64,000 nucleotides of DNA from Deltaproteobacteria bacterium (GCA_019308925.1 JAFDHG010000007.1:10169-74168); one strand, 5' to 3'; shown: positions 19,609 through 57,505, counted from the stretch's first letter. The notes: generated from the letters alone by a model not told the origin. Translations and numbers: made by a program.

Positions 19609-20256
19609 TCACTTAGCGCCCCTTGGCCGGGGGATTATCTTTATACTTTTCATCTCCCCCTCCCCCTCACTTCTGGTCTCTACCTCGCTGTAATCTTTCA
19701 AGGCAAGATGCACTACCCTCCTGTCTCTTGGGTTCATGGGCTGCAAACTGACCGCCCTCCCCGCGCTTTTGACCTTCTCCCCCATGCGCAGCGCCAATCG
19801 TTCTAGGGCTTCATTTCTTCTCTCGCGGTACTGTTCTGTATCTACAACTACTATCTTCCTCTCCCCTAGGCCTTTAGCCACGATCCTCTCCACCATATAT
19901 TGGATGGCATCCAAGGTCTTGCCATGCCGCCCGATCAACAGGCCACTTCCGTCTCCCTTGATGTTTAAATAGATCCTCCCCCCTTCCACTCTTCCCTCTA
20001 CCTGGGCAGGTACGTTGATGCCCGCAATGATCCTTTCCAAGACCATCTTCGCATAGTTGAGGTCCTCATCCTCTGCCTCCTGGGGCCCTTTTGGTCTCGC
20101 CCTCACCTTCACCTTTTTATTCCCTATTAAACCGAATATCCCACGGGACTTCTCCTCGATGACCTCAAACTCCAGTTCTTCCCTCTTTTTTCCTAGTTCC
20201 TTGCATATCTCCTCGATGGCCTCCTCGGCGTTCCTGGCCTCTTTTTCTATCAACAT
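19609..20256 (-). CDS. jag: Jag/KhpB (EloR) RNA-binding protein with KH and R3H domains
   Basis: R3H-type C-terminus. Lies in the conserved position between yidC and mnmE. Confidence 0.8.
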   Translation of the reverse strand: MLIEKEARNAEEAIEEICKELGKKREELEFEVIEEKSRGIFGLIGNKKVKVRARPKGPQEAEDEDLNYAKMVLERIIAGINVPAQVEGRVEGGRIYLNIKGDGSGLLIGRHGKTLDAIQYMVERIVAKGLGERKIVVVDTEQYRERRNEALERLALRMGEKVKSAGRAVSLQPMNPRDRRVVHLALKDYSEVETRSEGEGEMKSIKIIPRPRGAK

Positions 20257-20268
20257 CTTGCCGCCTCC

Positions 20269-24137: not shown

Positions 24138-25637
24138 ATGTCCATAGTTATCTTGGGTCTGTTCGGGATCGCGGTCCTCTGGATGGCTGTCTACGGCTAC
24201 AGGATCTCCGCCAAGACCGCGGAAGACTACATGCTGGCCGGCAGGGGGATCGGGATCATAGTGATGTTCTTCCTCACCCTCTTTGGCATATCAAGCGCCT
24301 GGACCTTCTACGGATATCCCGGATTTTTATATCGCCATGGCCCCTCCTTTGTCTACTTTGTGTGGGGGTGTGTGGTGGGGTTTGTATCGCTCTATATGTT
24401 TTTGGGGCCCAGGTTGTGGGCGGTGGCCAAGCTCAACCACTTCCTCTCCCCTGTAGAGATCCTTTCCAAAAGATATGAATCAAATACCCTGCGCTTCGTC
24501 CTGGCCCTTGTCCTGCTCGCCTCCATCATCCCCTATATCGGTCTGGAGTCCTTGGGTGTGGGATTGGGGTTTAAGGCCTTTGCAGGATTTCATCCGGCAA
24601 TAGGGATCATCTATACGACAATCCTCTTGATCTTCATCATCCTCTTGGGGGGGATGAGGATGACCGCCTGGACCAATATCCTTCTCGGCATCATCTATAC
24701 TACTACCTTTTTGGGTTCCCTCTTATGGATAATACATATAGTTTTCCCCCACGGCCTTCCTCAAGCCGTCCAGATCCTCGCCGCCAAGGGGCCAAAACTC
24801 CTCTACGCCCCAGGACCAAAGGTGGTGGGTGAACCCCTCTTTACCCATCCGGTTATCGTGGGCGTATTCATCACTGGATTTATGGCCTTTTCCTGGCCCC
24901 ATATCGTAATGGGAGCCTTAACCGTGAGGGACAAGTCCATTTTTAAATGGCTTCCCCTATTGGGTATAGCGGCTGGAGGGATAGGCTTTTACACCATCCC
25001 CTTCCTTTGGGGTTCTCTCGTGGCCCCTGCCATAAGCCACATGGATGGGACCCTGGTCCCTGTGGCTAGTGGCAAGGCGGCGGACAATATTGTTCAGGTG
25101 ATCATCACCAAATATCTCCCCGGCTGGTTCTCAGCCTTTGCCCTCATGGGGGTCGTCGCTGCTGCCCTCTCTACCGCCGCTATACAGCTAATGACATCGG
25201 CTATCCTGGTCTCCAGGGATCTGATCCACGGATTCTTTAAGCCCGATGCCACTGATAAACAACTCATCACCTGGACAAAGTTCGCGGTCATAGGTCTGAT
25301 CATCTTATCCTTGGGGATAGCCGTCTGGAACCCCATGGCCCTGGCCCTCTATCTCACGCACGTGGCCGTGCCCGGGTTTGCCCAGTGGGCACCGTGCCTT
25401 GCGGGTGGGATCCTCTGGAAAAGGGGTACAAAACAGGGGGCTATCGCAGGGGTCCTTGCAGGAACGGCCCTTTTGATTGTAGGGTTTATCTGCCATTTCA
25501 CGGATGCCATAATCCTCTCCTTTATTATCAACACCCTCATCTACATAGTAGTCAGCCTCTTGACCCCTAAACCCTCGGACCAAGTCGAGAGGATATTCTT
25601 CGATGAGGTGGAGGAATTCTTAAAGGAAAAGGCCTGA
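24138..25637 (+). CDS. Sodium:solute symporter family transporter
   Basis: 499 aa with about 13 transmembrane segments and an SSF-type N-terminal region (EDYMLAGRGIG). Confidence 0.85.
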   Translation: MSIVILGLFGIAVLWMAVYGYRISAKTAEDYMLAGRGIGIIVMFFLTLFGISSAWTFYGYPGFLYRHGPSFVYFVWGCVVGFVSLYMFLGPRLWAVAKLNHFLSPVEILSKRYESNTLRFVLALVLLASIIPYIGLESLGVGLGFKAFAGFHPAIGIIYTTILLIFIILLGGMRMTAWTNILLGIIYTTTFLGSLLWIIHIVFPHGLPQAVQILAAKGPKLLYAPGPKVVGEPLFTHPVIVGVFITGFMAFSWPHIVMGALTVRDKSIFKWLPLLGIAAGGIGFYTIPFLWGSLVAPAISHMDGTLVPVASGKAADNIVQVIITKYLPGWFSAFALMGVVAAALSTAAIQLMTSAILVSRDLIHGFFKPDATDKQLITWTKFAVIGLIILSLGIAVWNPMALALYLTHVAVPGFAQWAPCLAGGILWKRGTKQGAIAGVLAGTALLIVGFICHFTDAIILSFIINTLIYIVVSLLTPKPSDQVERIFFDEVEEFLKEKA

Positions 25638-27031
25638 TGGAATGGAGGCTGATCAATAATAGCGAGGGAGAGGTAGCAGACCTGCTGGCCCTGCCAGCGG
25701 CCGTGGCTGAGGCCAGAATAGCGGGGCGCTATATCCTCACCTCAAAACCCATACCGGAGACGATAATCATTCAACGGGTTAAGAAAAAAGGAATTTTAGC
25801 TGGTGCGGAGGTGGTGGTAGACAGGGAGGAAGCAGAAAGCGAGGAAATAGAGATCGCCGTGCAGCCCAGAGGAGGGCGTGGGGGTATGCGCCCGGCAGAG
25901 ACGATCTCTCTTCAGGAGCTGATGCTTAAGGCAAAGGACAAGTTCACCCCAGTGGATAACCCACCTGATGAGACCGCAGCCCTCATCTATACCTCTGGCA
26001 CTACGGGAAATCCCAAGGGGGTAATGCTCACCCACGGCAACTTCCTGGCCGAGTGCGAGGCGACCTCAGAGATCATAACCACCACTGAGGGGGATAGATT
26101 CGCCACCTTGGTCCCCTTTTTCCATATCTATGGTCTGGCCATAGGTCTGGTGGTCTCCCTCTTTCGAGGGTGCGGCTCGGTCTTATTCCCCCAATACTCC
26201 CCACGCCAGTTCCTGAAGCGGATGGGTAAGGAAAAGGTCTCCATCCTCATCGCCATCCCCACTCAATACCATCACCTCTTGCTTGCCGCCAAGAAGAGGT
26301 CCTTCGCCCAGCCCTCTCTAAAATACTGCATATCTGGGGCTGCTCCCTTGCCCGTAAATGTTATCCAGGCCTTCAAGGAGGCCTTCGGGGTCGATATCAC
26401 CGAGGGGTATGGTCTTACCGAGACCACGGCCGCCGTGGCAGTAAACCCTCGGGAAAAGACAAAACCAGGATCTGTGGGTATATCAGTTAAGGGCGTGCAG
26501 ATAAAGATAGGGGATGACCAGGGGAATGCGTTGTCTCCTCACAAGGCAGGGGAGGTCCTCGTAAAGGGCAAGGTGGTGATGAATGGGTATTATAACCTCC
26601 CGGAGGAGACCCAAGAGGTCTTGAGAGATGGGTGGTTGTGCACAGGCGATATAGGATATCAAGACGAGGAGGGATACCTCTATATCACCGAGAGAAAGAA
26701 GGATATCATCATAAAAGCAGGATTCAACATCTCCCCGGCGGAGATAGAGGAGCTCTTGTGCTCCCATCCTAAGGTGAAGGAGGCAGCCGTAGTGGGCCAG
26801 AAGGAAAAGGAGGGGAGGGAGGAGGCCATAAAGGGCTTTATAGTCCCTGTTGAGGGGGAGGAGATAACCCCTGCGGAGATCATCGGATACTGCAGGATGA
26901 AACTGGCCCCCTATAAGGTGCCTGATGAGATAGAGTTTACGGAAGGCCTGCCTAAGAGTGCCACCGGCAAGGTAGTGAGAAGGGAGCTGCGGCAGGGATA
27001 TAAAGACATGAGGGTCATAGAGAGGGGATGA
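25637..27031 (+). CDS. AMP-dependent synthetase/ligase (acyl-CoA ligase) lacking the canonical first ~100 residues
   Basis: Motifs YTSGTTGNPKG, TEGYGLTET, GDIGYQDEEGYLYITER and PKSATGKVVRREL are present. TSGTTG sits at residue 119 instead of about 160-190. Confidence 0.8.
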   Translation: MEWRLINNSEGEVADLLALPAAVAEARIAGRYILTSKPIPETIIIQRVKKKGILAGAEVVVDREEAESEEIEIAVQPRGGRGGMRPAETISLQELMLKAKDKFTPVDNPPDETAALIYTSGTTGNPKGVMLTHGNFLAECEATSEIITTTEGDRFATLVPFFHIYGLAIGLVVSLFRGCGSVLFPQYSPRQFLKRMGKEKVSILIAIPTQYHHLLLAAKKRSFAQPSLKYCISGAAPLPVNVIQAFKEAFGVDITEGYGLTETTAAVAVNPREKTKPGSVGISVKGVQIKIGDDQGNALSPHKAGEVLVKGKVVMNGYYNLPEETQEVLRDGWLCTGDIGYQDEEGYLYITERKKDIIIKAGFNISPAEIEELLCSHPKVKEAAVVGQKEKEGREEAIKGFIVPVEGEEITPAEIIGYCRMKLAPYKVPDEIEFTEGLPKSATGKVVRRELRQGYKDMRVIERG

Positions 27032-27915
27032 ATTTAGGAAGACTTCTAGAGGAAAGGGCCAAGGAGTATCCCAAAAAGGCCGCCCTCCTCTATGAGGGAA
27101 AGGCCATAAGCTTTGAGGAGCTCAACAAGAACGTAAATCGGCTTGCAAATGGCCTGAAGGGTCTCGGTATAGAGGGAGGGGACAGGGTGGCCCTCATGCT
27201 CCCCAATACACCGGAGTTTGTCTATTCTTTCTTTGCATGCCAGAAGCTGGGCGCAATAGCGGTCCCCTTTAATACAATGCACAAAGGTGGTGAGATACTT
27301 TACATTCTTAAAGATTGCGCGGCCAAGGCTATCATCACCCTTAACAGCGCAGTCCCCCTTATCAATGAGATCCGACCAGAACTTCCCCATTTGCAATACA
27401 TCATCACTACCGGGGAGCGCAACCTGACCTTTGCCGATCCTGAATCCACGCTCTTCCTCCAGGGGGTGTTATCCAAGGGTATCTTCAAGGACCTAGATGA
27501 TGCCTATAGGAAGATAGGGGATGCCTTAGTACAGGGGTTGTGGGAGTTGGGATTGAAAGAGATATGGTATAAGCACAGGGGAAGCCTGCGGATAGGGGGA
27601 AGGAAGCTGGCGGGTTTTTATTTCTCCGAAATCGAAGGCTTATATATCTTAAATATCATCTGTTTCCTTGCCCCTTTTGACCCCTCGGACTTCTTTTCCG
27701 TCATCTGGGTTCCACCAGAGGTAAAGGACAAGGTCTTAGAGCCCTTGACCTCGATCCAGGAGGAGTTGGGGAGGCGGCCCACCGACGAGGAATTTCGAGA
27801 GGCAATCTTGGGCGCCCTGGAGAAGGGGTTTGGAATTAAATTAAAAGAGGGTACCTTCACAAGGGATGAACGATTTGGTTACGAAAAACATAAGGCTGTG
27901 GCCAAGAAAAAATAA
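27028..27915 (+). CDS. Mosaic protein: an ANL (acyl-CoA ligase) N-terminal subdomain (~140 aa) fused to a fragment resembling the C-terminus of lipoate-protein ligase (LplA)
   Basis: The N-terminus is the typical ligase start (KKAALLYEGKAISFEELNKNVNRLANGL...GDRVALMLPNTPEF...). The C-terminus is LplA-like (RIGGRKLAG...EEFREAILGALEKGFGIKLKEGTFTRDE). Confidence 0.6.
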   Translation: MNLGRLLEERAKEYPKKAALLYEGKAISFEELNKNVNRLANGLKGLGIEGGDRVALMLPNTPEFVYSFFACQKLGAIAVPFNTMHKGGEILYILKDCAAKAIITLNSAVPLINEIRPELPHLQYIITTGERNLTFADPESTLFLQGVLSKGIFKDLDDAYRKIGDALVQGLWELGLKEIWYKHRGSLRIGGRKLAGFYFSEIEGLYILNIICFLAPFDPSDFFSVIWVPPEVKDKVLEPLTSIQEELGRRPTDEEFREAILGALEKGFGIKLKEGTFTRDERFGYEKHKAVAKKK

Positions 27916-30965: not shown

Positions 30966-31910
30966 CTATTCGGAAAGCCAACCATAGATCGTCCGGAACA
31001 CCATATCGTGAGATTTTTCCAAGACCAGCCCATGAGAGGCGTTGCCAATCAGCATATAGGCCTTCTTCTCGACCTTACAGTCTTTGAAGCAATTCATTGC
31101 ATCTTCTAAATCGACAAACACTTCATGTTCGCCATACATGAAAAGCGTAGGACATTTAAGCATTGGTACATATTTTGCGTGGGGACAATATTGGGCGTCT
31201 ATGAAAGGACCAGTAGGTATTTTGGGAGTTCGCTTCTGGACAATTTCAACAAATTTATTCAGAACTTTTTCATCATATTTATACCAAATACCTTTGGCTG
31301 ACACAGGATTTGAGGGAACGAAATTTTTCCCTGTTTCGGCCATATGACTCAACTTGGCAACCCCCTTTTTCACCTTCTTATTAACCGTTTTGTAGGGCAA
31401 CCCCATTAATACCATACGTTCTACTTCTTCTGGATACTTTGCAGCAAGTGCTAGTGAAATCACCGTTCCGAAAGAGAGGCCAACCACATCAACCTTGTCA
31501 ACGTTTTCTTTGGACTCAATAAAATCAGCAACTGCTTTCATATCCTCTGAACAGTTCTCTGCGACGACGTCTGGTCCTTTTGTTTTTGTGCTCTTGCCGT
31601 AACTCCTATGGTCTACTGCATAGACGGCAAAGCCCTTCTTGACGAGGTAGTCCATTAAATTATAGCCTTCGACAGGCAGGTTATACAGTGTGGCCCCACT
31701 CTTGACCCACGGAACCATGAGCACTACGTTTGAGGGAACGCCCTTGGCTGCCTTTTTCCCTACTACATAGATATCCAACCCCTGCGGTGTCTTGACCATG
31801 TATTCCTTCTGGACAATGCTGATCTCTTTTGCTGGACGAAGGGCAGCACAGCCTGAGAGATAGACAAAGGCCACCATTAACACAATAAAATACGTAATGA
31901 ACCTCTTCAT
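30966..31910 (-). CDS. Alpha/beta-hydrolase-fold lipoprotein
   Basis: Lipoprotein signal (lipobox LSGC), nucleophile elbow GLSFG, and a low-GC gene body. Confidence 0.75.
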   Translation of the reverse strand: MKRFITYFIVLMVAFVYLSGCAALRPAKEISIVQKEYMVKTPQGLDIYVVGKKAAKGVPSNVVLMVPWVKSGATLYNLPVEGYNLMDYLVKKGFAVYAVDHRSYGKSTKTKGPDVVAENCSEDMKAVADFIESKENVDKVDVVGLSFGTVISLALAAKYPEEVERMVLMGLPYKTVNKKVKKGVAKLSHMAETGKNFVPSNPVSAKGIWYKYDEKVLNKFVEIVQKRTPKIPTGPFIDAQYCPHAKYVPMLKCPTLFMYGEHEVFVDLEDAMNCFKDCKVEKKAYMLIGNASHGLVLEKSHDMVFRTIYGWLSE

Positions 31911-32080: not shown

Positions 32081-32123
32081 AAACAAAAAAGGGTTGGAGA
32101 TGACAATTTTGTTACTCCAACCC
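32081..32123 (-). terminator. Rho-independent terminator downstream of the Tat-MBL gene (GGGTTGGAG-loop-CTCCAACCC followed by a U-run on the minus strand)
   Basis: 9-bp stem with an A-run at 32081-32090 on the plus strand (a T-run on the minus strand). A further hairpin at 32231-32268 sits right after the stop. Confidence 0.5.
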
Positions 32124-32274
32124 TTGCACGTAGATTTTAGACACAGGCTTTGCTGAAAAACAGGCGCAAGATTCACCCCTGCAGTAAGCTCAAATGCCCC
32201 AACAAAAACTGTGTTGTGAACCTCTGTTGCAGACGGGTTGGAACGTCTCGAAGCGTCCCAGCCCGTCTCAGTCC

Positions 32275-33444
32275 TTACCCAGCCTTAAACTCAATGGTGT
32301 CGCCGTTGCCGAGGTAGGCCGTATCCTTAGAACGGTACCGGGCCGTACCCCTCACCACCGGGTATCCAGCATCGATAAACTTCTTGGCCGTAACGATCCC
32401 GGTGCAGTGATTACATCCCACCTTCTCAAAGCCGTATTTCCCCAATGAGATGACCAGGTCGTCATATTTTGGATCCCAGTCCTCAAACGGTGAGATGTGC
32501 AGACCGCCATAGACACCGTGGAGCTTCTCATACTTGATCTCCCGATACGCGGTCTCGGCGAATTGGATGATGCTCTGGTGGCAACATCCGGTCACAGAAA
32601 CCAACCCAGCATCTTTGACATTGAAGTACAGGGATAGCTCACCATAGACACGACAGATGATCGGTATGGCGAACACATACATCGCAACACCAGGCATGAA
32701 GGGGTGCAATCCGGCCTTGAGGTAATTAACCTTGCCCCGGTGTCCGCTGTCCTTGACGTACTGGCGCCCTTCCGGGTAGAACCCATCAGCACAATACATC
32801 GTTATTGTCGGATCGTATTTCATGGTTACTGGCAGGCCCCAGAAGTGGTCAAAGTGCTCATGGGAGATGAACAGACACTCAATCTCCCTATTCGCCAGCA
32901 TCCTATCGATACCTTCCCGCTTAAAACACTCCTCGGTCCATGCATACGACCATCCAGAATCCAGGAGTAGCTTTTTACGGCTCCCATCAAGGAATTCCAC
33001 ATCGATCAGGCAAGCATACCCGCCTGCATTCTCCGGATGCACCGCATTCTCCATCTGAAATTCCCAGGCCTTCTCCAGCTTATCAGGAAGATACTGCTTG
33101 ATCTCTTTCATCCCCTTTTCGTAGGAACCCTTGCCAAGCTTGCCATTTTTCTCAGCAAAGGGGGGCCAATTATAGGTATACTGGTTGACGAGCAGACCAC
33201 CTGCGCCCTTGATATCACCCATCAGGTTATCGTTATCGAACCAGCTCGTTTCGCTAATATTGGTGATCTTGATGCTCTTGCATTCTCCAATATCAGCGGT
33301 TCCCCTCTTTACAGCGGGAAAGTGGCGCTTGCGCCATGGAGAATAGGAGTAGACACCCATCGCTCCGATGGCCCCTACCGCACCTCCGGCGGCCAAGCCT
33401 TTGATAAAATCCCGCCGACTAACGCCTTCTTGCTTTTTTGCCAT
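32275..33444 (-). CDS. Tat-exported metallo-beta-lactamase (MBL)-fold hydrolase
   Basis: The start at 33444 has a GAAGGAGGTG RBS. Twin-arginine signal SRRDFIKGLAAGGAVGAIGAMG. MBL motif HEHFDHF (HxHxDH) plus downstream His/Asp ligands. Confidence 0.8.
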   Translation of the reverse strand: MAKKQEGVSRRDFIKGLAAGGAVGAIGAMGVYSYSPWRKRHFPAVKRGTADIGECKSIKITNISETSWFDNDNLMGDIKGAGGLLVNQYTYNWPPFAEKNGKLGKGSYEKGMKEIKQYLPDKLEKAWEFQMENAVHPENAGGYACLIDVEFLDGSRKKLLLDSGWSYAWTEECFKREGIDRMLANREIECLFISHEHFDHFWGLPVTMKYDPTITMYCADGFYPEGRQYVKDSGHRGKVNYLKAGLHPFMPGVAMYVFAIPIICRVYGELSLYFNVKDAGLVSVTGCCHQSIIQFAETAYREIKYEKLHGVYGGLHISPFEDWDPKYDDLVISLGKYGFEKVGCNHCTGIVTAKKFIDAGYPVVRGTARYRSKDTAYLGNGDTIEFKAG

Positions 33445-33517
33445 CGTCTTCACCTCCTTCACTGTCCCATCACTAGGGGCAAAAACCCCTGCGCAGGACA
33501 GCAAGTTTTAGATTTTT

Positions 33518-33625
33518 CTAGGTGTAAAGCCATGTTAGCTTTCCCAAGACCGGGAGCAGCCATACGGTGACGAAATAAATTACCACTCCCAAGACTATCC
33601 CTATGACAAACCCTGCTTTAAACAT
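33518..33625 (-). CDS. 35-aa single-transmembrane peptide (MFKAGFVIGIVLGVVIYFVTVWLLPVLGKLTWLYT); not in the ORF track
   Basis: Manual translation. A strong GGAGGAGG RBS lies 7 nt upstream of the ATG. It sits exactly between the membrane protein and the MBL gene. Confidence 0.45.
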   Translation of the reverse strand: MFKAGFVIGIVLGVVIYFVTVWLLPVLGKLTWLYT

Positions 33626-33649
33626 CTTCTATCCTCCTCCTCAAAGGTT

Positions 33650-34903
33650 TTATTTTTTTACCTTTTTCCATCCTGGCCAGTTGTCCATGAACCAGTGATT
33701 AATCAGCATCAAGTTGATCAACCAGATAGTCGGGATCATAGGAAACTGCTGCGGATGGGAGTAGCCCTTCTGAGTCCCCAGGGTCAGGTGGCTGATATTG
33801 TAGTAGATCCAGTACACTGCCATCCCGCCGAAGATGGCGACGAGGGTACGGATCACCCAGTTGACAGGCGTGCTGAATCTATTGGGCCAGTTACCACAGT
33901 AGAAGGTAAGAAACAGGGCCGGGAGCAAGAAGAAGACCATGGTCTCTCCTACATGCAGCCAGCGCCAATCAGGGGCAAAGAGCCTGCGTGTGCCGCGGAT
34001 GGCCTCACCCCACCACAATTCCTGGGCAAAGTAGAGGAAGAAAAAGAAGCAGAAGGCAACAGCGATGATCCCAAAGAAGGAAGAAAACCCTCGCAGGACA
34101 GGCCTCTTAATAAGTCTGTAGGGGTAGCGCTCCCAGATAGTTTCTGTCAACCACACCGATATGGTACAGCACATAATCCAGGCCACATGGAAGTTTCCAC
34201 TTACCGTATTGGCAAATTTCTCCCAATAGGGCGGGCATATGGCGCAAAAATACTGCCAAGGATAGGAAAGGATGCCCATATGCGAATGCATGGTGCATAA
34301 GTAGATGATGGTGCACAGGAAGAAGGTGAAGATGAGCACGGTAACCCCCTTGGCAGGTTGCCTAAGGTCTTGCCAAGGCCACATATTGCTGAACGATACC
34401 GGCCAGGCAGGGCTCAACCAGGAAGCGAGGGCCGCAAACATCAGACAGGCCAATGCCGCATACTCGATGGCAAAGAAGTCCGTGATTCCGGGTATCTTAG
34501 TGGACTGGGCCGGATTGAAATAGGCCATGGCAAAGTTCCCCAAGATCCCTTCAAAGAATCCTTTTATCAATACCATCAATATCACGAACATTAGGGCCGT
34601 CATCACAATCCCCTTCAACACCGGGTTCCAGTTCTCAATCTGCCGACGCCTGAAGGGCCAGTAGTGCATGATGTAGACCTGCCAGATCAGAACGATAAGT
34701 ATCCACCTGGTGTACATGTAGCCAACATAAGGGGTATACATCCTGAGCCAACCTCTGGGGTCCTGGAAGATCCACCAAGTAATATAGAACACCACTAACA
34801 AGAAAACGGTATTTGCAATCTGCGGCCATGGTGCTGGCCACCTGGGAACCAATTTCCGCTCCTCCAGATAATCCTCTCCAAATATCTCTTTTGCCTTAGC
34901 CAT
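33650..34903 (-). CDS. Trp/Tyr-rich polytopic integral membrane protein (about 10-12 transmembrane segments), family not recognised
   Basis: 417 aa, strongly hydrophobic with many aromatic residues. Co-directional with and upstream of the peptide and MBL genes. Confidence 0.7.
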   Translation of the reverse strand: MAKAKEIFGEDYLEERKLVPRWPAPWPQIANTVFLLVVFYITWWIFQDPRGWLRMYTPYVGYMYTRWILIVLIWQVYIMHYWPFRRRQIENWNPVLKGIVMTALMFVILMVLIKGFFEGILGNFAMAYFNPAQSTKIPGITDFFAIEYAALACLMFAALASWLSPAWPVSFSNMWPWQDLRQPAKGVTVLIFTFFLCTIIYLCTMHSHMGILSYPWQYFCAICPPYWEKFANTVSGNFHVAWIMCCTISVWLTETIWERYPYRLIKRPVLRGFSSFFGIIAVAFCFFFFLYFAQELWWGEAIRGTRRLFAPDWRWLHVGETMVFFLLPALFLTFYCGNWPNRFSTPVNWVIRTLVAIFGGMAVYWIYYNISHLTLGTQKGYSHPQQFPMIPTIWLINLMLINHWFMDNWPGWKKVKK

Positions 34904-34971
34904 ATTGCACCCTCCTTAATTTGAGATACATACTAACATTTAAAAACCCCCTCATTGGGAACTAACTAGTC

Positions 34972-35268
34972 TCACCTCCTTTCCCTTGATCTTTTCTTCA
35001 CCCGTTGCTCGGGTTTAAAGACCTCCCTGGCGATCTCCAGCTTGCTCTTGCCCTCAACCTCAATCCCCATCTTCATCGCCTCCTCTATGAGGAGCTCACC
35101 AGACTCGGAGAGCAGCGGATAACAACTTTCAAAGGACTTAAAGTAATCATCCTCTTCTTTCAGAGAATCTCCCTCTTTATACGAATCCATCATTTCGTTG
35201 AGAAACCGAGCAGCCTTGGAAAAAACATCTCTGGTTAGAAAATCTCTTCTGCTCTTATCAATGGCCAT
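34972..35268 (-). CDS. Hypothetical 98-aa acidic protein beginning with an SRRDFL motif but with no hydrophobic h-region
   Basis: Clean ORF between the regulator and the membrane-protein gene. Not recognisable as a signal peptide. Confidence 0.5.
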   Translation of the reverse strand: MAIDKSRRDFLTRDVFSKAARFLNEMMDSYKEGDSLKEEDDYFKSFESCYPLLSESGELLIEEAMKMGIEVEGKSKLEIAREVFKPEQRVKKRSRERR

Positions 35269-35332
35269 CCATATTCTCCACAGGACTTACACTGTTCTGT
35301 CTCCACATAAACAAACTTCATCTACCTCACGA

Positions 35333-35782
35333 TCAAGCGGCCAACAATCGCTTCCTGTTAAACCGGAAATAATCGCACTCTTCGCATGGAACTGTACAAT
35401 TAATTTTCTGATGCCCCACCTCCTCCCTGAGGGCATAACAGTTTAGGGCCTTAGTTTTGTATACGAGACACTGCTCACAACTTAGGCCAGGGCGGACGTG
35501 AGTATCTATTGTTGTGCCATAGAATTCCCAGCAAAATGCTGTGGTCTCGTCGGTATGGTCGTAGACGCTTAAGTCCACACCTGTTTCTTGCGGGTCTGGA
35601 AATGGAATTCTATTTTTCCTTAAGAATGCGACCAGATCTTTGGGTAAAATTCGCCAATGGCCCGTTTTACCAATCCTATACCCCTTAAGTTTATCCTGTT
35701 GGAGCCATCGTTTTACTGTCTCCCGTGAATGGTGACATAATTTGGCCACTGCACCTGTTGTAAAGCTCTTCTTTATCCCCAT
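35333..35782 (-). CDS. HTH regulator (excisionase/MerR-like HTH_17 N-terminus) with a seven-Cys C-terminal domain
   Basis: N-terminus TTGAVAKLCHHSRETVKRWLQQDKLKGYRIGKTGHWRI. C-terminal CxxC and CxxxCxxC-type spacing suggests metal or Fe-S binding. Confidence 0.7.
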   Translation of the reverse strand: MGIKKSFTTGAVAKLCHHSRETVKRWLQQDKLKGYRIGKTGHWRILPKDLVAFLRKNRIPFPDPQETGVDLSVYDHTDETTAFCWEFYGTTIDTHVRPGLSCEQCLVYKTKALNCYALREEVGHQKINCTVPCEECDYFRFNRKRLLAA

Positions 35783-35888
35783 AACTGTTATCTGTTCGTT
35801 TTGTGTGTTTTGGACAACCTATTTCATCTGTTTTTCTTTGTCAAGCACTTTTTGAAAAAAATATAGCAGTGATTACCCCTCGCCTTGT

Positions 35889-35917
35889 TTGCTATACCTA
35901 AGCGGTTATGATATAAT
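35889..35917 (+). promoter_or_regulatory. Sigma70-like promoter (TTGCTA-17-TATAAT) for the COG0523-fusion gene
   Basis: It is followed by an AAGGAGA RBS 10 nt upstream of the GTG start at 35941. Confidence 0.45.
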
Positions 35918-35940
35918 ATGTTTAAGGAGAATGATCTGTC

Positions 35941-37884
35941 GTGGCAACGCTTAAAGATCTACAGCCTTCGGGGATCGTAACCCAACCTGATTTGGGATTT
36001 CCGGATCTAATTGAAAATTTTTTTATCAGACTCTTCTATGAACCCCGCATCAAGGAACTGATCGGCTGGATCGGTATTGCCTATAGTGAGACCTCCTCAA
36101 GAGGCTGGACCATCAGGGTAAAGGGGCAGAAGGGCATCTACGGCCTCCAGTACGGGGGATGTGAGAAGGAAGATCCCACCTGGAATCACGGGATCTTCTA
36201 TATCCAATACTTTCCTGCTGCGGATGAGGATATCTTAGATTGTTTCTCCATACACGAAAATATCCTCCGTCAAGACCCATCATTCGAAGGCTTACTCCGT
36301 GAGAGACCACCAGGGATTGATCCTCTCGATGCTCAATTCATCGTGGGAAGGTTGATTCTGTCTATCGACGCTGAGGAGAACAACCTCTTTCTTTCTCTTT
36401 GGGCGCCTGAAAAATGGCGCGAGATCCTCAAAGATGGGCTCAGTTTGCCTCAAGATGATGGTACTATGGTTGAGGCTATTCCCGCCGGGGGGATGGACCG
36501 CGATGTCCCAGCCTATACTCTATCGTGGCCCTTTTTTGACAAAATCGTTCTTACTGCTGCGTACCACCTCAAGCAGCCTCCAGTCTTTGTGACCTTAAAG
36601 GGGCGTCCAGCCCAGGTCTTCGAGATCACTGGCGAAAATCAATACACAATTAAACACAACCCGGATATCGAAGAACGGTGTCTCTCCGTTGGGTTCGGCC
36701 CTGAACTGGGAGAGGGAACAGATGATCCTCGACTCGACTTGGTGAAGAGCTTCTTCCCCGCAGAGGCCTCTTCTCCCTCTCCCCCTCCCTCAAGAGTGAT
36801 CTGGTCTATAACATCACAACAGCCAGATCCCGCAAAGGGGAACCCTCTCTGGTGGGAAGCCCCCTCTTGGGAGGAAACGCTTAAACTGAAGGGGGTCAAG
36901 GCCTTAGGATTAGACTACCGACCCCCTCTATTGTTTATTACTGGCTTTTTGGGGAGCGGCAAGACCACACTGCTCAACCAGGTTGTCGAACATTACTCCG
37001 GGATGCGCAACGAATTCGTAGCCATAATCCAAAACGAGGTGGGGCAAATTAACGTGGACGGCGAATCCACAGATGGAGCAATCGCTGTTACTGAATTAGA
37101 GGAGGGTTGTGTCTGCTGCACCCTTCTCGGGGAGTTTCGAAGGGCCATCCGCAAGATCTGTATCGAGTATGAACCAGACTTGATCATTGTGGAGACAACC
37201 GGAGTTGCCGATCCCCACAATATCCTGGCGGAACTGCCTCAACTCAAGCCCTTTGTGCGCTTTGACTCTATGGTCACAGTCGTGGATGGGGCCAACCTTG
37301 AACGGATACTAAAGGAATACCCTGTGGCTACAGCACAGATTGAGGCCTCAGACTTAGTCCTTTTGAATAAATGCGACCTGATGGACGATCAAACCCTTGC
37401 CTGGGCACAGCCGACGCTTGAGAGGATCAATCCACGGGCGACCATTGTTCATACTGTCAATGCCCAAATTCCTCCAGGGCTTTTGCTCTGCACCCAAGAC
37501 GACATTGATACACCTCATCCAGGACAGCCTTCGGATAGGAAAAAAATGCCCCTGTCTGAGCGTCATTTGGCCGAACGCCCCAGTTTGGCCCTTGACTCAC
37601 AAAACATCGAGACCGTCACCGTAGTGCTGGAAGGTCGCTTTAAGGAAGTCAAATTAATTCAGCTATTGGATAATCTGTCTGACTCTGTCTATCGATTGAA
37701 AGGATTTGTTAATATAGAGGGTTTGGAAAAAACCCAATTGCTACAATATGTTGCCGGCCGCTATGAATTTGAAACCCCGCCCAAACCCCATCCCGGGCCC
37801 AATACACTGGTTTTCATCGGTCGCCATCTCAACGAAGAGGCCCTTAAAGCCAGCTTGAAGTACTGCTTAGCAGAGGAGGGCTAA
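35941..37884 (+). CDS. COG0523 (CobW/ZigA/YciC-type G3E) GTPase with a ~300-aa N-terminal extension of unknown function
   Basis: The C-terminal half has a P-loop (GFLGSGKTTLLN), the metal-binding CVCC motif (EEGCVCCTL), a switch region (VETTGVADP), NKCD (LLNKCDL) and a CobW_C-like tail. The N-terminal 300 aa match nothing recognised. Confidence 0.8.
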   Translation: MATLKDLQPSGIVTQPDLGFPDLIENFFIRLFYEPRIKELIGWIGIAYSETSSRGWTIRVKGQKGIYGLQYGGCEKEDPTWNHGIFYIQYFPAADEDILDCFSIHENILRQDPSFEGLLRERPPGIDPLDAQFIVGRLILSIDAEENNLFLSLWAPEKWREILKDGLSLPQDDGTMVEAIPAGGMDRDVPAYTLSWPFFDKIVLTAAYHLKQPPVFVTLKGRPAQVFEITGENQYTIKHNPDIEERCLSVGFGPELGEGTDDPRLDLVKSFFPAEASSPSPPPSRVIWSITSQQPDPAKGNPLWWEAPSWEETLKLKGVKALGLDYRPPLLFITGFLGSGKTTLLNQVVEHYSGMRNEFVAIIQNEVGQINVDGESTDGAIAVTELEEGCVCCTLLGEFRRAIRKICIEYEPDLIIVETTGVADPHNILAELPQLKPFVRFDSMVTVVDGANLERILKEYPVATAQIEASDLVLLNKCDLMDDQTLAWAQPTLERINPRATIVHTVNAQIPPGLLLCTQDDIDTPHPGQPSDRKKMPLSERHLAERPSLALDSQNIETVTVVLEGRFKEVKLIQLLDNLSDSVYRLKGFVNIEGLEKTQLLQYVAGRYEFETPPKPHPGPNTLVFIGRHLNEEALKASLKYCLAEEG

Positions 37885-37921: not shown

Positions 37922-39028
37922 TCATATCCTCACCAGCTCATACCCCCTACTGCCCAGCCCCATCTCCTCACCATATGCCAACTGGACCTCCCAGTCTACC
38001 TCCCGATGTACCGCCCGGAACTTGTCCTCCCCGGGGGGGAGCCCTGTCGTATACGGTGAGTGCGGGTTGCCCGGTTGCGCCCTTACCAAATCGACAGAGG
38101 CCTGGTCAATGGCCACCGGGTCATCTGAGGCGAGGATCCCCACATCCCCCACGATGGGGGCATCGCTGTGTCCGTAGCAGTCGCAGTACGGGCTTACCTG
38201 GGTGACAAAGCTCACAAACGCCACCCTCTCCCCTTTATTTTTCAACGCCCCCGCCGCATACTCCACCATCTTGCGCTGGAATTCCGGAGCAACCTCATCC
38301 CACTGGATCTTGATGGCCCCCTGCGGGCAGATCACATAACACTCTCCACACCCCACACACCTATCAGGGTCGATAAAGGCCTTCTCGTCCTTTATCTCGA
38401 TGGCCCCATGCGCACACCACTCGACGCAGGTTCCACAGCCAACACACGCTTTCCTCTTCACCTTCGGTGCTACGGTGGAGTGCTGGCTCAGCTTCCCCTT
38501 CCGGCTGGCACACCCCATACCCACGTTTTTTATAGCCCCACCAAAGCCGGTGAGTTCGTGACCTTTAAAGTGCGTCGCCACAAGCAGAGAATCAGCAAAG
38601 TAGATCTCATGGGCGATGCTCACTTCATGGTAGGTCTTCCCCTCTATTGGTACCCGAACAGAGGCGTTACCCCTCAGGCCGTCTGCAATAATGATCGGGG
38701 CCATCACCACAGAGAAGGAAAAGCCGTTCTCCACCGCCGTTATGAGATGGGAGACCGCATCGGACCTGGTGCCACCATAGAGGGTGTTGGTGTCGGTGAG
38801 AAAGGGCTTCCCCCCCAGTTCCTTCACCCGCTCGACGATCCGGCGCAGGAAGATGGGCCTGATATAGGCGGTGTTTCCCCGCTCGCCGAAGTGGAGCTTG
38901 ATGGCCACCGTCCCCTTGGGCCTGATCCTCTTGGGGAGCTCCACCCTCTCTAATAACTCCCCCACCTTGTCCAGAAGATTTCTTTTGACCTCGGCCCTAA
39001 GGTCAGCGAAATAGACCGTGCTCGCCAT
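37922..39028 (-). CDS. DUF362-family protein fused to a 2x[4Fe-4S] ferredoxin domain
   Basis: Two CxxCxxCxxxCP motifs (CVGCGTCVEWCAHG; CVGCGECYVICPQG) inside a DUF362-like scaffold. Confidence 0.7.
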   Translation of the reverse strand: MASTVYFADLRAEVKRNLLDKVGELLERVELPKRIRPKGTVAIKLHFGERGNTAYIRPIFLRRIVERVKELGGKPFLTDTNTLYGGTRSDAVSHLITAVENGFSFSVVMAPIIIADGLRGNASVRVPIEGKTYHEVSIAHEIYFADSLLVATHFKGHELTGFGGAIKNVGMGCASRKGKLSQHSTVAPKVKRKACVGCGTCVEWCAHGAIEIKDEKAFIDPDRCVGCGECYVICPQGAIKIQWDEVAPEFQRKMVEYAAGALKNKGERVAFVSFVTQVSPYCDCYGHSDAPIVGDVGILASDDPVAIDQASVDLVRAQPGNPHSPYTTGLPPGEDKFRAVHREVDWEVQLAYGEEMGLGSRGYELVRI

Positions 39029-41113: not shown

Positions 41114-42478
41114 ATGAAGGCGCGGATAAAATTGGAGCTCATCACCCCGGCGGTGGAGGACAATGCCCCCATCCCCAACCTCTCCCTCGCCACGGTGGCC
41201 GCCCTGACCCCGCCCGAGGTTGAGATCTCCTTCACCGATGACCTCGTCAACCCTATCGACCTGGATGGCGACCTGAAAGACGTGGACCTAGTGGGGATCA
41301 CCTGCTCTACCAAGACCGCCCCCAGGGCCTACGAGATCGCCAGGTCCTATCGCGAGCAGGGAACTCCCGTAGTCCTGGGGGGAATCCACCCCACGGCCAT
41401 GCCCGAAGAGGCCCTGGGGCACTGCGATGCCGTGGTGGTAGGGGAGGCAGAGGAGAGCTGGCCCTCCCTGATAGAGGACTTCCAAAGGGGAAAACTGGAG
41501 CGGATCTATCGGCAGGGGGGGTTCACCCCTCCGGAACAGATCCCTCAGGCCCGCCGCGACATCTACAACCCCAAGGACTACTTTCCCATTGACTCCCTGC
41601 AGGCCACCCGAGGTTGCCCCTATCTGTGTGACTTCTGCTCTGTGAGGAGGTTTTTCGGGGGGACCTTTCGCTACCGCCCCTTAGAGGATGTAATAGAGGA
41701 GATCCGCTCCCTGCATCACAAGGTGATCATGTTTGCCGATGACAATATCGTGGGCCACCCCCGCTACTCCAGAGAGCTACTAGAGGCCCTCATCCCCCTG
41801 CGGAAGAGGTGGATCGGCCAGGCCTCCCTGGCCGGCTTAGAGGATGAGGAAATGATCAAGCTCATGGTGAAAAGCGGCTGTGTGGGGCTTCTCATCGGCT
41901 TTGAGTCCATCTCCGAGGAAAACATCAAACTATCGAGAAAGTATCAGAACCGGCCTGCTGAATATCAGGGGATCATTCACAACCTGCACCGGCACGGCAT
42001 CGCCATCTGGGCCTCCTTTCTGTTCGGCTTCGACCACGATGACAAAGAAATCTTTGGACGGACGGTACGCTTCGCCATAGAGGCCAAGTTCTTCTCGGTG
42101 GTCTTCGCAATCCTCACCCCCTACCCCGGCACCGCCCTCTACGAACGCCTAAATGAGGAAGGGAGGCTGACCGATGAGAGGTGGTGGTTATTAAAGGATC
42201 AGGAAGCCTACGCCCCCCATTTCCACCCCCGGGGGATGACCAGGGAGGAGCTCCGGGAGGGGTGGGAATGGGCCTGGCAGGAGTACTATTCCTATCCCTC
42301 CATCCTGAGGAGGTTTCAGTGGGAGTATCCGCCCACCTTGGTCAACAAAGCTATCTACTTCCCTTTTAACCTCATTCAACGTCGCTTCGTCCGCAAAAAG
42401 ATCCTCAGGGGGGAGAGGCTCAGGTGGACCAAGGTTCCCTGGAAGAGTGGAACGGCTCAGCCTTGGACGTTGATGTGA
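41114..42478 (+). CDS. B12-binding-domain radical SAM protein (class B)
   Basis: N-terminal cobalamin-binding Rossmann-like region and a CxxxCxxC motif (CPYLCDFC). 454 aa. Confidence 0.85.
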   Translation: MKARIKLELITPAVEDNAPIPNLSLATVAALTPPEVEISFTDDLVNPIDLDGDLKDVDLVGITCSTKTAPRAYEIARSYREQGTPVVLGGIHPTAMPEEALGHCDAVVVGEAEESWPSLIEDFQRGKLERIYRQGGFTPPEQIPQARRDIYNPKDYFPIDSLQATRGCPYLCDFCSVRRFFGGTFRYRPLEDVIEEIRSLHHKVIMFADDNIVGHPRYSRELLEALIPLRKRWIGQASLAGLEDEEMIKLMVKSGCVGLLIGFESISEENIKLSRKYQNRPAEYQGIIHNLHRHGIAIWASFLFGFDHDDKEIFGRTVRFAIEAKFFSVVFAILTPYPGTALYERLNEEGRLTDERWWLLKDQEAYAPHFHPRGMTREELREGWEWAWQEYYSYPSILRRFQWEYPPTLVNKAIYFPFNLIQRRFVRKKILRGERLRWTKVPWKSGTAQPWTLM

Positions 42479-51654: not shown

Positions 51655-51780
51655 AATTGTTTTTTTGATAAATATGAAATTGTTGTACATCTTGGTCTTT
51701 AAAAGCCTTCGGCTTTGGAATTTAAAATGGGTTAACAGGCTTTCAAGATTTTTTCCCTTCTCCTATCTATCTTAAAAAGA

Positions 51781-54480: not shown

Positions 54481-57505
<3,025 letters not shown>

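What the first reader, a model, noticed from the sequence alone, without database searches (positions are those of the whole stretch)
32275..37884. Divergent cluster: Tat-exported MBL-fold hydrolase, a 35-aa single-transmembrane peptide, a Trp-rich polytopic membrane protein, a Cys-rich HTH regulator and an N-terminally extended COG0523 GTPase
The minus strand carries, in order, an HTH regulator with a seven-Cys sensor-like tail, a 98-aa acidic protein, a 417-aa aromatic-rich membrane protein with 10-12 transmembrane segments, an unannotated 35-aa single-transmembrane peptide with a consensus RBS, and a twin-arginine-signal MBL-fold (HxHxDH) hydrolase. Two hairpins close the operon. Diverging from the regulator, behind a near-consensus promoter, is a COG0523 metallochaperone-type GTPase with the CxCC motif. 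COG0523 proteins are known to deliver Zn or other metals to client enzymes. MBL enzymes are dinuclear Zn/Fe/Mn enzymes. Tat substrates acquire their metal in the cytoplasm before export. Together this points to a dedicated metal-insertion-and-export system for a periplasmic hydrolase, with a membrane partner and micropeptide of unknown role. No recognisable family was found for the membrane protein.
Basis: partly seen in the sequence, partly recalled or inferred. Interest (0 to 1): 0.65.

Follow-up and report, generated by a model that had tools for sequence, protein, structure and literature searches.

The report
Uncharacterised periplasmic metalloenzyme module with own chaperone
This is one copy of a widespread but undescribed gene module in anaerobic bacteria: an exported metallo-hydrolase-like enzyme, an orphan membrane partner, a small helper protein and a dedicated metal-delivery GTPase, which gives a rare, genomically defined "client" for this class of metal chaperones.

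Summary
Comparative genomics supports the main idea. The membrane protein and the Tat-signal MBL are adjacent in every related locus with room, across five or more phyla at 58-87% identity. A COG0523 GTPase carrying the same orphan N-terminal domain accompanies them in 40 of 48 loci; 7 of the 8 misses are truncated contigs.

Corrections:
1. The 35-aa peptide is the detached 11th transmembrane helix of the membrane protein. It is fused in most lineages and split, with its own AGGAGG ribosome-binding site, in Syntrophales and Rhodospirillales.
2. The 98-aa protein is a conserved component with a Tat-like RRxFL motif and no hydrophobic region.
3. The N-terminal "extension" is an autonomous domain. 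It also occurs without the GTPase, and then ends in a Cys/His-rich metal-binding tail.
4. The Cys-rich HTH regulator is lineage-specific.
5. The MBL belongs to the COG1237 / tw9814-phosphodiesterase subgroup.
6. The membrane protein is not an amino-acid transporter. It has no Pfam family and no natural fold match.

Best reading: cytoplasmic metal insertion, Tat export, then docking on the membrane partner. The substrate and the metal are unknown. I found no literature on the module.

The parts
32275..33444 (-). Tat-signal MBL-fold enzyme of the COG1237 subgroup, 389 aa from the ATG at 33444. The listed ORF extends to a TTG at 33504.
   Evidence: - TAT_signal, TIGR01409 and Lactamase_B all pass their cutoffs.
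- RBS GAAGGAGG precedes the ATG at 33444.
- AF2 model pLDDT 79.
- More than 1000 homologues, 70-85% identical among the best 120 listed.
33340..33444 (-). Twin-arginine signal, MAKKQEGVSRRDFIKGLAAGGAVGAIGAMGVYSYSP. It is unusually conserved and may be retained as a membrane anchor.
   Evidence: Mean column identity of the h-region is 0.72, against 0.765 for the mature protein, across 25 loci from several phyla. Gly, Met-Gly and Ser-Tyr positions are invariant. The anchor role is inference.
32845..32862 (-). HEHFDH metal-binding motif (aa 195-200) of the MBL.
   Evidence: The motif is invariant in alignment A2, together with GCCH (286-289), GGLH (313-316) and CNHC (344-347).
33518..33625 (-). 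35-aa single-helix peptide: the detached 11th transmembrane helix of the membrane protein.
   Evidence: - It is homologous to the C-terminal tail helix of the ~470-aa fused homologues.
- It is a separate ORF with an AGGAGG RBS in at least 13 Syntrophales-type loci. A separate tail-helix ORF of a different sequence type occurs in Rhodospirillales.
- The AF2 model of fused homologue P0072 has the tail as helix 435-465.
33650..34903 (-). Orphan Trp/His-rich polytopic membrane protein, 417 aa, 10 TM helices here.
   Evidence: - No Pfam, NCBIfam or PDB sequence relative.
- 498 homologues in the 5.8-billion-protein database, but only 131 representatives at 50% identity.
- Invariant H201/H203, H234, H312 and H378 (numbering of P0072), and many invariant Trp.
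34972..35268 (-). Small conserved cytoplasmic protein "S", 98 aa. N-terminal Tat-like SRRDFL motif without an h-region; C-terminal EEAMKMGIEVEG motif.
   Evidence: A small protein occupies this position immediately upstream of the membrane-protein gene in most lineages examined. The (R/K)RxF(L/F) motif is present in 16 of 17 sequences. It is also present in the distant locus L060.
35333..35782 (-). HTH_17 DNA-binding protein with a 7-Cys C-terminal tail. Probably the local regulator; not a conserved part of the module.
   Evidence: Pfam HTH_17, 41 bits. A homologue was found only in L057 among 58 loci. Other lineages use GntR+PAS, sigma54-PAS or a two-component system instead.
35889..35917 (+). 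Sigma-70-like promoter TTGCTA-17-TATAAT (extended -10 TG) in front of the GTPase gene.
   Evidence: 10 of 12 matches, the best site in the region scanned.
35941..36918 (+). Module-specific orphan N-terminal domain (aa 1-~326) of the GTPase; proposed client-recognition domain.
   Evidence: - No Pfam or PDB relative.
- Homologous domains precede the GTPase in all fused homologues.
- It also occurs standalone, ending in Cys/His metal motifs: HHHHHDHDHHH in L002, HCCF(K/R)DH in L005 and L007, CLCCLHDH in L059, CCCCH in L060.
36928..37449 (+). COG0523 G3E GTPase domain. Walker A GFLGSGKT at aa 335, CVCC at aa 390 (nt 37108-37119), NKCD at aa 476.
   Evidence: Pfam cobW, 147 bits; motifs.
37606..37869 (+). 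CobW_C C-terminal domain of the GTPase.
   Evidence: Pfam CobW_C, 64 bits, aa 556-643.
32089..32268 (-). Two hairpins (32231-32268 and 32089-32125) and a terminator-like stem with a T-run (32183-32165) downstream of the MBL stop codon.

Best explanation
The region encodes one copy of a horizontally spread, so far undescribed envelope module with four conserved components:
- S, a small cytoplasmic protein with a Tat-like RRxFL motif.
- MEM, an orphan membrane protein of 10 helices plus an 11th helix, which here is a separate 35-aa peptide.
- A Tat-targeted binuclear MBL-fold enzyme of the COG1237, phosphodiesterase-like subgroup.
- A metallochaperone built from a module-specific N-terminal domain plus a metal-binding unit. 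Here and in most lineages that unit is a COG0523 GTPase with CxCC. Elsewhere it is just a Cys/His-rich tail.

Proposed mechanism:
1. In the cytoplasm the N-domain binds the apo-MBL, possibly through its twin-arginine signal. S, which carries a look-alike motif, may modulate this step.
2. The CxCC site hands over the metal on GTP hydrolysis.
3. The folded holo-enzyme is exported by Tat.
4. It docks on the periplasmic face of MEM, where the invariant His/Asp/Trp residues are predicted to lie. It may be tethered by its conserved signal helix and the glycine-zipper tail helix or peptide.
5. The complex then acts on an extracytoplasmic ester-type substrate, whose presence is sensed by lineage-specific PAS, GntR, sigma54 or HTH regulators.

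Shown: the gene content, conservation, co-occurrence, fission and fusion events, fold class and motifs. Inferred: the direction of metal transfer, the physical complex, topology, chemistry, and the identity of the metal.
For: **Co-occurrence**
- MEM and MBL are adjacent in all loci with room.
- The N-domain or N-domain-GTPase is present in 40 of 48 loci. Seven of the eight misses are contig ends.
- It sits directly downstream of the MBL in Desulfovibrionales, Bacteroidales, Spirochaetota and Campylobacterota. It is divergent and upstream in Syntrophales, as in the window.
- The MBL, MEM and N-domain persist with a different gene order in branches whose MEM is only 28-29% identical (L059, L060); the S protein was also seen in L060.

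**Metallochaperone role**
- Where the GTPase is missing, the N-domain carries its own Cys/His metal motifs.
- The GTPase has all COG0523 motifs.

**Export**
- The MBL has a consensus S-R-R-D-F-I-K Tat signal.
- The signal is almost as conserved as the mature enzyme.
- The RR motifs of S and the MBL resemble each other and co-vary in Rhodospirillales: RRALCRG in S against RRAFLRG in the MBL.

**Fold**
- The MBL fold is closest to phosphodiesterase tw9814, Tm1679 and 2p4z, then RNase Z and RNase J.

**Membrane partner**
- MEM is an orphan with invariant His residues. A positive-inside reading of the AF2 helices places them at the periplasmic side.

**Precedent**
- G3E GTPases are typically encoded next to their client. 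Few bacterial COG0523 clients are known (PMC11672702).
Against: - There is no experimental or structural evidence of any protein-protein contact. No multimer prediction was possible, and the N-domain could not be modelled.
- The metal is unknown.
- A signal-peptidase site (A-M-G) cannot be excluded, so the anchor idea is weak.
- The MEM model is only moderately confident (pLDDT 72), and its topology comes from my own reading.
- TonB-ExbB-ExbD follow the GTPase in 6-8 loci, and a TonB-dependent receptor plus a NikA-like ABC importer lie next to the module in L022. This fits an uptake role at least as well.
- One locus with ample flanks (L017) has no chaperone gene nearby.
Confidence: 0.55

Rival explanations
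1. Metal or metallophore acquisition module. MEM is an inner-membrane permease for a metal or metal chelate brought in by TonB-dependent uptake. The periplasmic MBL hydrolyses or releases the metal from its carrier. The COG0523/N-domain protein receives and distributes the imported metal in the cytoplasm, so metal flows opposite to the best explanation.
For: - ExbB-ExbD-TonB lie directly after the GTPase in 6-8 loci from two phyla.
- A TonB-dependent heme-type receptor plus a NikA/Opp-type ABC importer are adjacent in L022. A homologous ABC importer is adjacent in L041, and one shared permease in L050.
- Secreted alpha/beta hydrolases lie next to the module in the window and in Bacteroidales.
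- The chaperones have His-rich or Cys-rich tails.
- COG0523 genes are often found with TonB components in Zur regulons (PMC11672702).
Against: - The associated regulators are GntR+PAS, sigma54-PAS, two-component systems and chemoreceptors, not Zur, Fur or NikR.
- No TonB-dependent receptor is consistently present.
- Tat export of the MBL argues for cytoplasmic cofactor loading.
- MEM shows no similarity to any known metal permease fold.
- The N-domain stays with the MBL and MEM even where no uptake genes are nearby (L059, L060, Rhodospirillales).
Confidence: 0.15
2. Membrane-bound redox enzyme, respiratory or detoxifying. The MBL-fold subunit carries a redox-active di-metal site, as in flavodiiron proteins or CmlA-type oxygenases. 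MEM is its quinol- or electron-coupling membrane subunit, analogous to Tat-exported reductases with membrane anchors.
For: - Very strong conservation of both proteins across phyla of anaerobes.
- Invariant His cluster in MEM.
- Invariant Cys residues around the MBL metal site: GCCH and CNHC.
- PAS-type sensors in three different regulatory solutions.
- A monoheme cytochrome c gene follows the module in L060, and NifX-like (Nitro_FeMo-Co) genes precede it in 10 Syntrophales loci.
Against: - There is no flavodoxin, rubredoxin or heme-binding motif in the MBL or MEM.
- The cytochrome and NifX neighbours are lineage-restricted.
Confidence: 0.15
3. Coincidental neighbours. The COG0523 is a generic zinc-limitation chaperone and the MBL a stand-alone periplasmic hydrolase, with no dedicated relationship to each other or to the membrane protein.
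For: - COG0523 proteins are commonly general Zn-starvation factors (PMC11672702).
- In the window the GTPase is transcribed divergently from its own promoter.
Against: - Co-occurrence in 40 of 48 loci across at least 5 phyla, with changing gene order.
- A unique N-domain that otherwise occurs as a stand-alone protein inside the same module.
- All scores against the ZigA, CobW and YjiA equivalog models are far below cutoff.
Confidence: 0.03

Closest known systems
[NiFe]-hydrogenase maturation and export (HypB G3E GTPase with HypA; Tat export; membrane cytochrome b anchor)
   Same: A G3E-family GTPase encoded with its client. The metal is inserted in the cytoplasm, the folded holo-enzyme is exported by Tat, and it docks on an integral membrane subunit. 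Tail or signal helices serve as anchors.
   Different: - The chaperone here is a COG0523 protein, not HypB, and is fused to an orphan domain.
- The client is an MBL fold, not a hydrogenase.
- The membrane partner has no heme motifs and no known fold.
- No endopeptidase or Fe(CN)2CO machinery is present.
COG0523 metallochaperones with known clients (Nha3 / Fe-nitrile hydratase; CobW / cobaltochelatase; ZNG1 / METAP1; ZagA / FolE)
   Same: cobW G-domain with Walker A, CxCC and NKxD, plus a CobW_C domain. The gene is linked to a putative client metalloenzyme.
   Different: - A ~326-aa N-terminal domain absent from canonical members, which PMC11672702 describes as an N-terminal G-domain plus a C-terminal domain.
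- The client is periplasmic and Tat-exported.
- The GTPase can be replaced by a Cys/His tail in some lineages.
- Scores lie far below the ZigA, CobW and YjiA equivalog cutoffs.
COG1237 MBL-fold proteins: phosphodiesterase tw9814 (7dck), Tm1679 (3h3e), 2p4z; KEGG K06897 / EC 2.5.1.105 name given by JGI
   Different: - The window protein has a Tat signal and an extra ~120-aa N-terminal region.
- It is always paired with MEM and the chaperone.
- It is 68-85% conserved across phyla.
- A cytoplasmic methanopterin-biosynthesis role is implausible for an exported protein in these bacteria.
Tat proofreading chaperones and vestigial Tat motifs (TorD, DmsD, NarJ; the NarG N-tail)
   Same: The concept fits. 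A cytoplasmic factor could hold a twin-arginine peptide until the cofactor is inserted. S carries an RRxFL motif without an h-region, like the remnant motif of NarG.
   Different: There is no sequence or family similarity: no Pfam hit for the N-domain or for S. Binding is untested. This is an analogy only.
APC/AAT amino-acid transporters (JGI's name for the membrane protein)
   Same: A polytopic inner-membrane protein of similar size.

Membership tests
COG0523 / CobW family of G3E GTPases | Walker A GxxxxGK[ST], CxCC metal motif between G2 and G3, NKxD | tested here: met
   GFLGSGKT at aa 335, CVCC at aa 390, NKCD at aa 476. Pfam cobW 147 bits against a cutoff of 20.7.
COG0523 / CobW family of G3E GTPases | C-terminal CobW_C domain | tested here: met
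   PF07683, 64.2 bits against a cutoff of 22, aa 556-643.
COG0523 / CobW family of G3E GTPases | Canonical two-domain architecture (G-domain at the N-terminus) and membership of a named equivalog (CobW, ZigA, YjiA/PRK11537) | tested here: not met
   A 326-aa orphan domain precedes the G-domain. Scores are 122 vs 332 (CobW), 106 vs 600 (ZigA) and 108 vs 361 (PRK11537).
Metallo-beta-lactamase superfamily | HxHxDH motif and alpha-beta/beta-alpha sandwich fold | tested here: met
COG1237 subgroup (tw9814 / Tm1679 / 2p4z) | Best sequence and structure matches; shared TGCxH, GGxH and HC(T/S)G motifs | tested here: met
EC 2.5.1.105 methanopterin-pathway synthase (name used by JGI for homologues) | Cytoplasmic enzyme in a methanopterin biosynthesis context | tested here: not met
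   The protein has a Tat export signal. No pterin-biosynthesis genes appear in any of about 50 neighbourhoods. Activity itself is not testable here.
Tat substrates | S/T-R-R-x-F-L-K motif followed by a moderately hydrophobic h-region | tested here: met
   VSRRDFIKG followed by LAAGGAVGAIGAMGV. PF10518 and TIGR01409 score above cutoff. The motif is conserved in all homologues aligned.
Tat substrates | Tat-dependent export demonstrated | not testable with these tools
   Needs export assays in tat mutants.
APC / AAT amino-acid transporter family | AA_permease-type profile match and LeuT fold | tested here: not met
Zur-regulon Zn-sparing COG0523 loci | Regulation by Zur and neighbours that are Zn-independent paralogues or Zn uptake genes | tested here: inconclusive
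   No Zur gene and no paralogue-type neighbours were seen. The regulators are GntR+PAS, sigma54, two-component systems or the HTH-Cys protein. Zur boxes were not searched across phyla. TonB-ExbBD is present in 6-8 loci.
Redox-enzyme maturation proteins (TorD/DmsD/NarJ family) | Family profile match; binding of the twin-arginine peptide | tested here: not met
   No Pfam hit for the N-domain or for S, and no PDB sequence relative. Binding is not testable here, so only the functional analogy remains open.

The most novel reading that the evidence does not exclude
This would be a new class of Tat-dependent, membrane-docked metalloenzyme complex. It would be built from three orphan protein families: MEM with its detachable 11th helix, the S protein, and the chaperone N-domain. 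Its COG0523 GTPase would be fused to a client- or signal-peptide-recognition domain, combining metal insertion and Tat proofreading in one protein. That would make it the first bacterial COG0523 with a genomically fixed periplasmic client, with a natural GTPase-free variant that uses only a Cys/His tail.
Probability: 0.35. Interest if true: 0.8.

Novelty: new variant of a known kind. Interest (0 to 1): 0.7.

Why it matters
- **A rare defined client.** Clients of bacterial COG0523 metallochaperones are almost unknown; a 2024 review names essentially only CobW and Nha3 (PMC11672702). Here comparative genomics pins one COG0523 subfamily to one client, through a dedicated extra domain. Natural GTPase-less variants offer a built-in test of what the GTPase adds.
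- **An experimental handle.** The system could show how a Tat-exported enzyme gets the right metal before export.
- **Three new families.** It exposes three protein families with no Pfam model. The membrane protein is conserved at 58-87% identity across Thermodesulfobacteriota, Bacteroidota, Spirochaetota, Campylobacterota and Alphaproteobacteria, which implies an important and transferable envelope function in anoxic habitats.
- **A textbook split gene.** The 35-aa ORF is a clear case of a transmembrane helix encoded either fused or as a separate micropeptide.

Tried and rejected
- **N-domain homologue search.** A search of the 5.8-billion-protein database returned nothing above threshold. 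This used the last search, so no alignment was admissible for structure prediction of that domain.
- **Metagenome scans with N-domain alignments.** I therefore could not test whether the N-domain ever occurs outside the module.
- **AFDB fold search for the membrane protein.** The library was unavailable.
- **JGI name "AAT family amino acid transporter".** Rejected.
- **JGI/KEGG name [quoted passage not shown].** Rejected as a function for an exported protein.
- **Rfam.** No riboswitch or other RNA family in the window or in four related loci.
- **Sigma54 promoter.** None upstream of the operon in the window; matches are at chance level.
- **Opp/Nik-type ABC association.** The apparent 10-locus cluster was a heterogeneous set of ABC ATPases. 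Only three loci share the actual importer genes.
- **Literature.** Searches for COG1237, COG0523 with MBL, tw9814, COG0523 with Desulfovibrio, and CobW with MBL fold or Tat found no description of the module. One Tat tail-anchor paper mentions an unrelated MBL neighbour.
- **Glycine-betaine or choline-ester substrate.** I considered this because of an OpuAC-like protein after the MBL in Syntrophales, and weakly in Roseospira. It occurs in too few lineages to commit to.

Full report
**Observation**

- **MBL.** The ORF (32275-33504, minus strand) most likely starts at the ATG at 33444, which follows GAAGGAGG. The 389-aa product passes the curated cutoffs of Pfam TAT_signal and TIGR01409 and, narrowly, Lactamase_B. 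It has HEHFDH at residues 195-200.
- **35-aa ORF** (33518-33625) follows GAGGAGGAGG.
- **Membrane protein** (33650-34903; 417 aa) is 7.0% Trp and 21% aromatic. It matches nothing in Pfam or NCBIfam and nothing in the PDB by sequence.
- **98-aa protein** (34972-35268) is only mildly acidic, with pI 5.7.
- **Regulator** (35333-35782) is an HTH_17 domain with seven Cys in its tail.
- **GTPase** (35941-37884; 647 aa) has cobW and CobW_C domains at residues 330-643, Walker A, CVCC and NKCD. Its first ~326 residues match no family.

A TTGCTA-17-TATAAT promoter with an extended -10 lies at 35889-35917. Two hairpins plus a terminator-like stem follow the MBL stop codon.

**The module is conserved**

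The membrane protein (MEM) and the MBL each have hundreds to more than a thousand homologues in the 5.8-billion-protein database. The best 120 of each are 66-87% identical to the window proteins.

A scan of one genome per species returned 55 loci at 53-86% MEM identity (58-86% over full-length matches). They come from:
- Thermodesulfobacteriota (Syntrophales, Desulfovibrionales);
- Spirochaetota;
- Bacteroidales;
- Campylobacterota (Sulfurospirillum, Arcobacter, Halarcobacter);
- Rhodospirillales (Roseospira, Rhodospira);
- one Alcaligenaceae MAG.

tblastn and ORF clustering of these loci gave the following:
- The MBL directly follows MEM wherever the contig has room.
- A protein containing the same N-terminal domain as the window GTPase is present in 40 of 48 loci with a called MEM ORF.
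- Seven of the eight exceptions are cut by a contig end on the relevant side. Only L017 truly lacks it, and its MAG carries a second, complete copy (L038).
- In Desulfovibrionales, Bacteroidales, Spirochaetota and Campylobacterota the order is MEM-MBL-GTPase on one strand. An example is Desulfohalobium retbaense: GntR, 84 aa, MEM 472, MBL 384, cobW 614, then ExbB-ExbD-TonB.
- In Syntrophales the GTPase is divergent and upstream, as in the window.

The high identity across phyla points to horizontal spread together with strong constraint.

**The 35-aa peptide**

Most MEM homologues are about 470 aa long. Their extra C-terminal tail contains a helix (…GWGLGTGALVGVAIYFITIW…) homologous to the window peptide MFKAGFVIGIVLGVVIYFVTVWLLPVLGK….

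- In at least 13 Syntrophales-type loci the tail is a separate 35-41-aa ORF with its own AGGAGG ribosome-binding site.
- In Rhodospirillales a separate 38-40-aa ORF of a different sequence type occupies the same place. It is called as a gene in Roseospira visakhapatnamensis.
- Elsewhere the tail is fused, 56-64 residues beyond the DNWPxWK motif.
- An AF2 model of the fused homologue P0072 (pLDDT 72, pTM 0.75) has ten helices plus this tail as an eleventh, residues 435-465.

So the micropeptide is real and conserved. It is a detached transmembrane helix of MEM rather than an independent element. Both it and the MBL signal helix carry GxxxG-type spacing, which is compatible with helix pairing. 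That pairing is inference.

**The 98-aa protein (S)**

A protein of about 80-145 aa sits immediately upstream of MEM in most lineages examined.

- In 16 of 17 aligned sequences it begins with a twin-arginine-like motif, (S/T)(R/K)RxF(L/F), that is not followed by a hydrophobic region.
- It ends with a motif of the type E-A-x-(K/R)-(L/M)-G-I-(D/E)-P.
- The motif mirrors the MBL's own signal: window S has SRRDFL and the MBL has SRRDFI.
- In Rhodospirillales both deviate in the same way: S has RRALCRG and the MBL has RRAFLRG.

This hints that one partner reads both motifs. S has no Pfam family.

**The N-terminal "extension" is an autonomous domain**

- In Roseospira and Rhodospira there is no GTPase. 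Instead a 294-382-aa protein homologous to the window's residues 1-326 ends in CAC…HHHHHDHDHHH or similar tails.
- In L005 and L007 stand-alone versions end in HCCF(K/R)DH.
- In two branches whose MEM is only 28-29% identical to the window's, the MBL, MEM and a stand-alone N-domain ending in CLCCLHDH (L059) or CCCCH (L060) are again adjacent, in a different order. L060 also has an S homologue.

The conserved unit is therefore the N-domain plus a thiolate/imidazole metal site. That site is supplied either by the COG0523 CxCC G-domain or by a short tail. This is the strongest argument that the protein is a metallochaperone dedicated to this module.

The N-domain has no Pfam or PDB relative. I could not model it, because the last homologue search returned nothing.

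The most distant MEM relatives, at 23-28% identity (L061, L062), stand alone or lie next to other hydrolases.

**The MBL**

HxHxDH, GCCH, GGLH and CNHC are invariant. JGI's pterin-synthase name reflects this COG1237 relationship, but it is implausible for an exported protein.

The Tat signal is almost as conserved as the mature enzyme: 0.72 against 0.765 mean column identity across phyla. That is unusual for a cleaved signal and suggests a retained or interacting helix. An A-M-G cleavage site cannot be excluded.

**MEM**

- Only 131 cluster representatives at 50% identity are detectable by HMMER among 1.84 billion. None of ten distant relatives has a Pfam domain.
- Invariant residues include H201 and H203 (MHxHMG), H234 (GNFH), H312 (DWRWLHVGE), H378 (SHPQQFPMIP) and many Trp.
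- Reading the AF2 helices with the positive-inside rule, these cluster at the periplasmic face, where the exported MBL would sit. This is inference.

**Context and function**

Regulators differ by lineage:
- a GntR/FCD protein plus a PAS protein in 17-18 loci;
- a sigma54-PAS activator in Syntrophales and some other loci (17 in all), with a NifX-like protein in 10 Syntrophales loci;
- a PAS histidine kinase and response regulator in Campylobacterota;
- the HTH-Cys protein only in the window and L057.

Chemoreceptor genes recur. An OpuAC-like periplasmic protein follows the MBL in some Syntrophales, and weakly in Roseospira. ExbB-ExbD-TonB follow the GTPase in 6-8 loci. L022 has a TonB-dependent receptor and a NikA-like ABC importer next door.

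This pattern indicates an inducible envelope function linked to an external compound. It does not look like a Zur-type zinc-sparing response. It also keeps a metal or metallophore uptake role alive as a rival. No riboswitch was found.

**Mechanism proposed**

1. The metal is inserted into the apo-MBL in the cytoplasm by the N-domain chaperone, driven by GTP where the COG0523 domain is present.
2. S may modulate this step through its signal-like motif.
3. Tat exports the folded holo-enzyme.
4. The enzyme docks on MEM and its tail helix at the periplasmic face.
5. The complex hydrolyses an ester-type substrate.

The nearest known logic is [NiFe]-hydrogenase maturation and export, and the COG0523/client pairs Nha3-nitrile hydratase and ZNG1-METAP1.

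I put 0.55 on this architecture and assembly reading, 0.15 on metal acquisition, 0.15 on a redox enzyme and 0.03 on coincidence. The substrate and the metal are unknown.

**Novelty**

Seven literature searches found no description of the module. A 2024 review states that clients of bacterial COG0523 proteins are essentially limited to CobW and Nha3.

I rate this a new variant of a known kind: a G3E chaperone with its client and Tat export, built largely from orphan families.

Interest is 0.7.

Noticed in passing
window 49201-56913, with 18041-21933: The window contains the chromosomal origin region: gyrA (49201-51654), dnaA (51861-53189), dnaN (53318-54424) and gyrB (54511-56913), with yidC and mnmE on the other strand at 18-22 kb. 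The cumulative GC skew reaches its minimum near 48-50 kb, and GC drops to 0.42 at 52-54 kb. The module therefore lies only ~15 kb from the likely oriC.
   Followed up: partly
window 25637-27915: Two overlapping ORFs split an AMP-binding enzyme in permuted order. The first (464 aa) matches AMP-binding profile positions 125-384 plus the C-terminal domain. The second (295 aa) matches positions 1-123, fused to an LplA/B-like catalytic domain. A sodium:solute symporter gene precedes them.
   Followed up: no
window 30966-31910 (-): A 314-aa alpha/beta-hydrolase lipoprotein (Hydrolase_4 / Abhydrolase_1, LSGC lipobox) lies ~360 nt downstream of the MBL, beyond the hairpins. An unrelated secreted alpha/beta hydrolase follows the GTPase in three Bacteroidales loci, and another follows the MEM-like gene in L062. 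Hydrolases recur next to MEM-family genes.
   Followed up: partly
MEM, window 33650-34903; residues RGTRRLFAPDWRW: The membrane protein has an invariant internal loop, G-T-R-R-x-F-A-P-D-W-R-W. It is a third RRxF-type motif in the module, besides those of the MBL signal and the S protein. No explanation.
   Followed up: no
L006 and L014 (same Syntrophaceae MAG); L017 and L038 (same Leptospirales MAG): Two MAGs each carry two copies of the MEM-MBL module on different contigs. In the Leptospirales MAG one copy (L017) lacks the chaperone gene and the other (L038) has it.
   Followed up: partly
L006, L012, L015, L016, L018, L020 and others (upstream of S/MEM): In Syntrophales relatives a sigma54-PAS activator and a ~110-aa NifX-like protein (Pfam Nitro_FeMo-Co) sit between the divergent GTPase and the S-MEM operon. 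The window instead has the HTH-Cys regulator.
   Followed up: partly
L009, L010, L016, L020, L029 (after the MBL); L002 10785-11402: A half-size OpuAC-like periplasmic protein (~187 aa; Pfam OpuAC E 1e-11) follows the MBL in five Syntrophales loci. A 205-aa secreted protein with a faint OpuAC match follows it in Roseospira. This is a possible hint at a quaternary-amine-type ligand.
   Followed up: partly
window 37922-39028 (-) and 41114-42478 (+): A DUF362 protein with two 4Fe-4S motifs converges on the GTPase gene, with a 37-nt gap. A B12-binding radical SAM protein (with DUF4070) lies 3 kb further on. No link to the module was seen in other loci.
   Followed up: no
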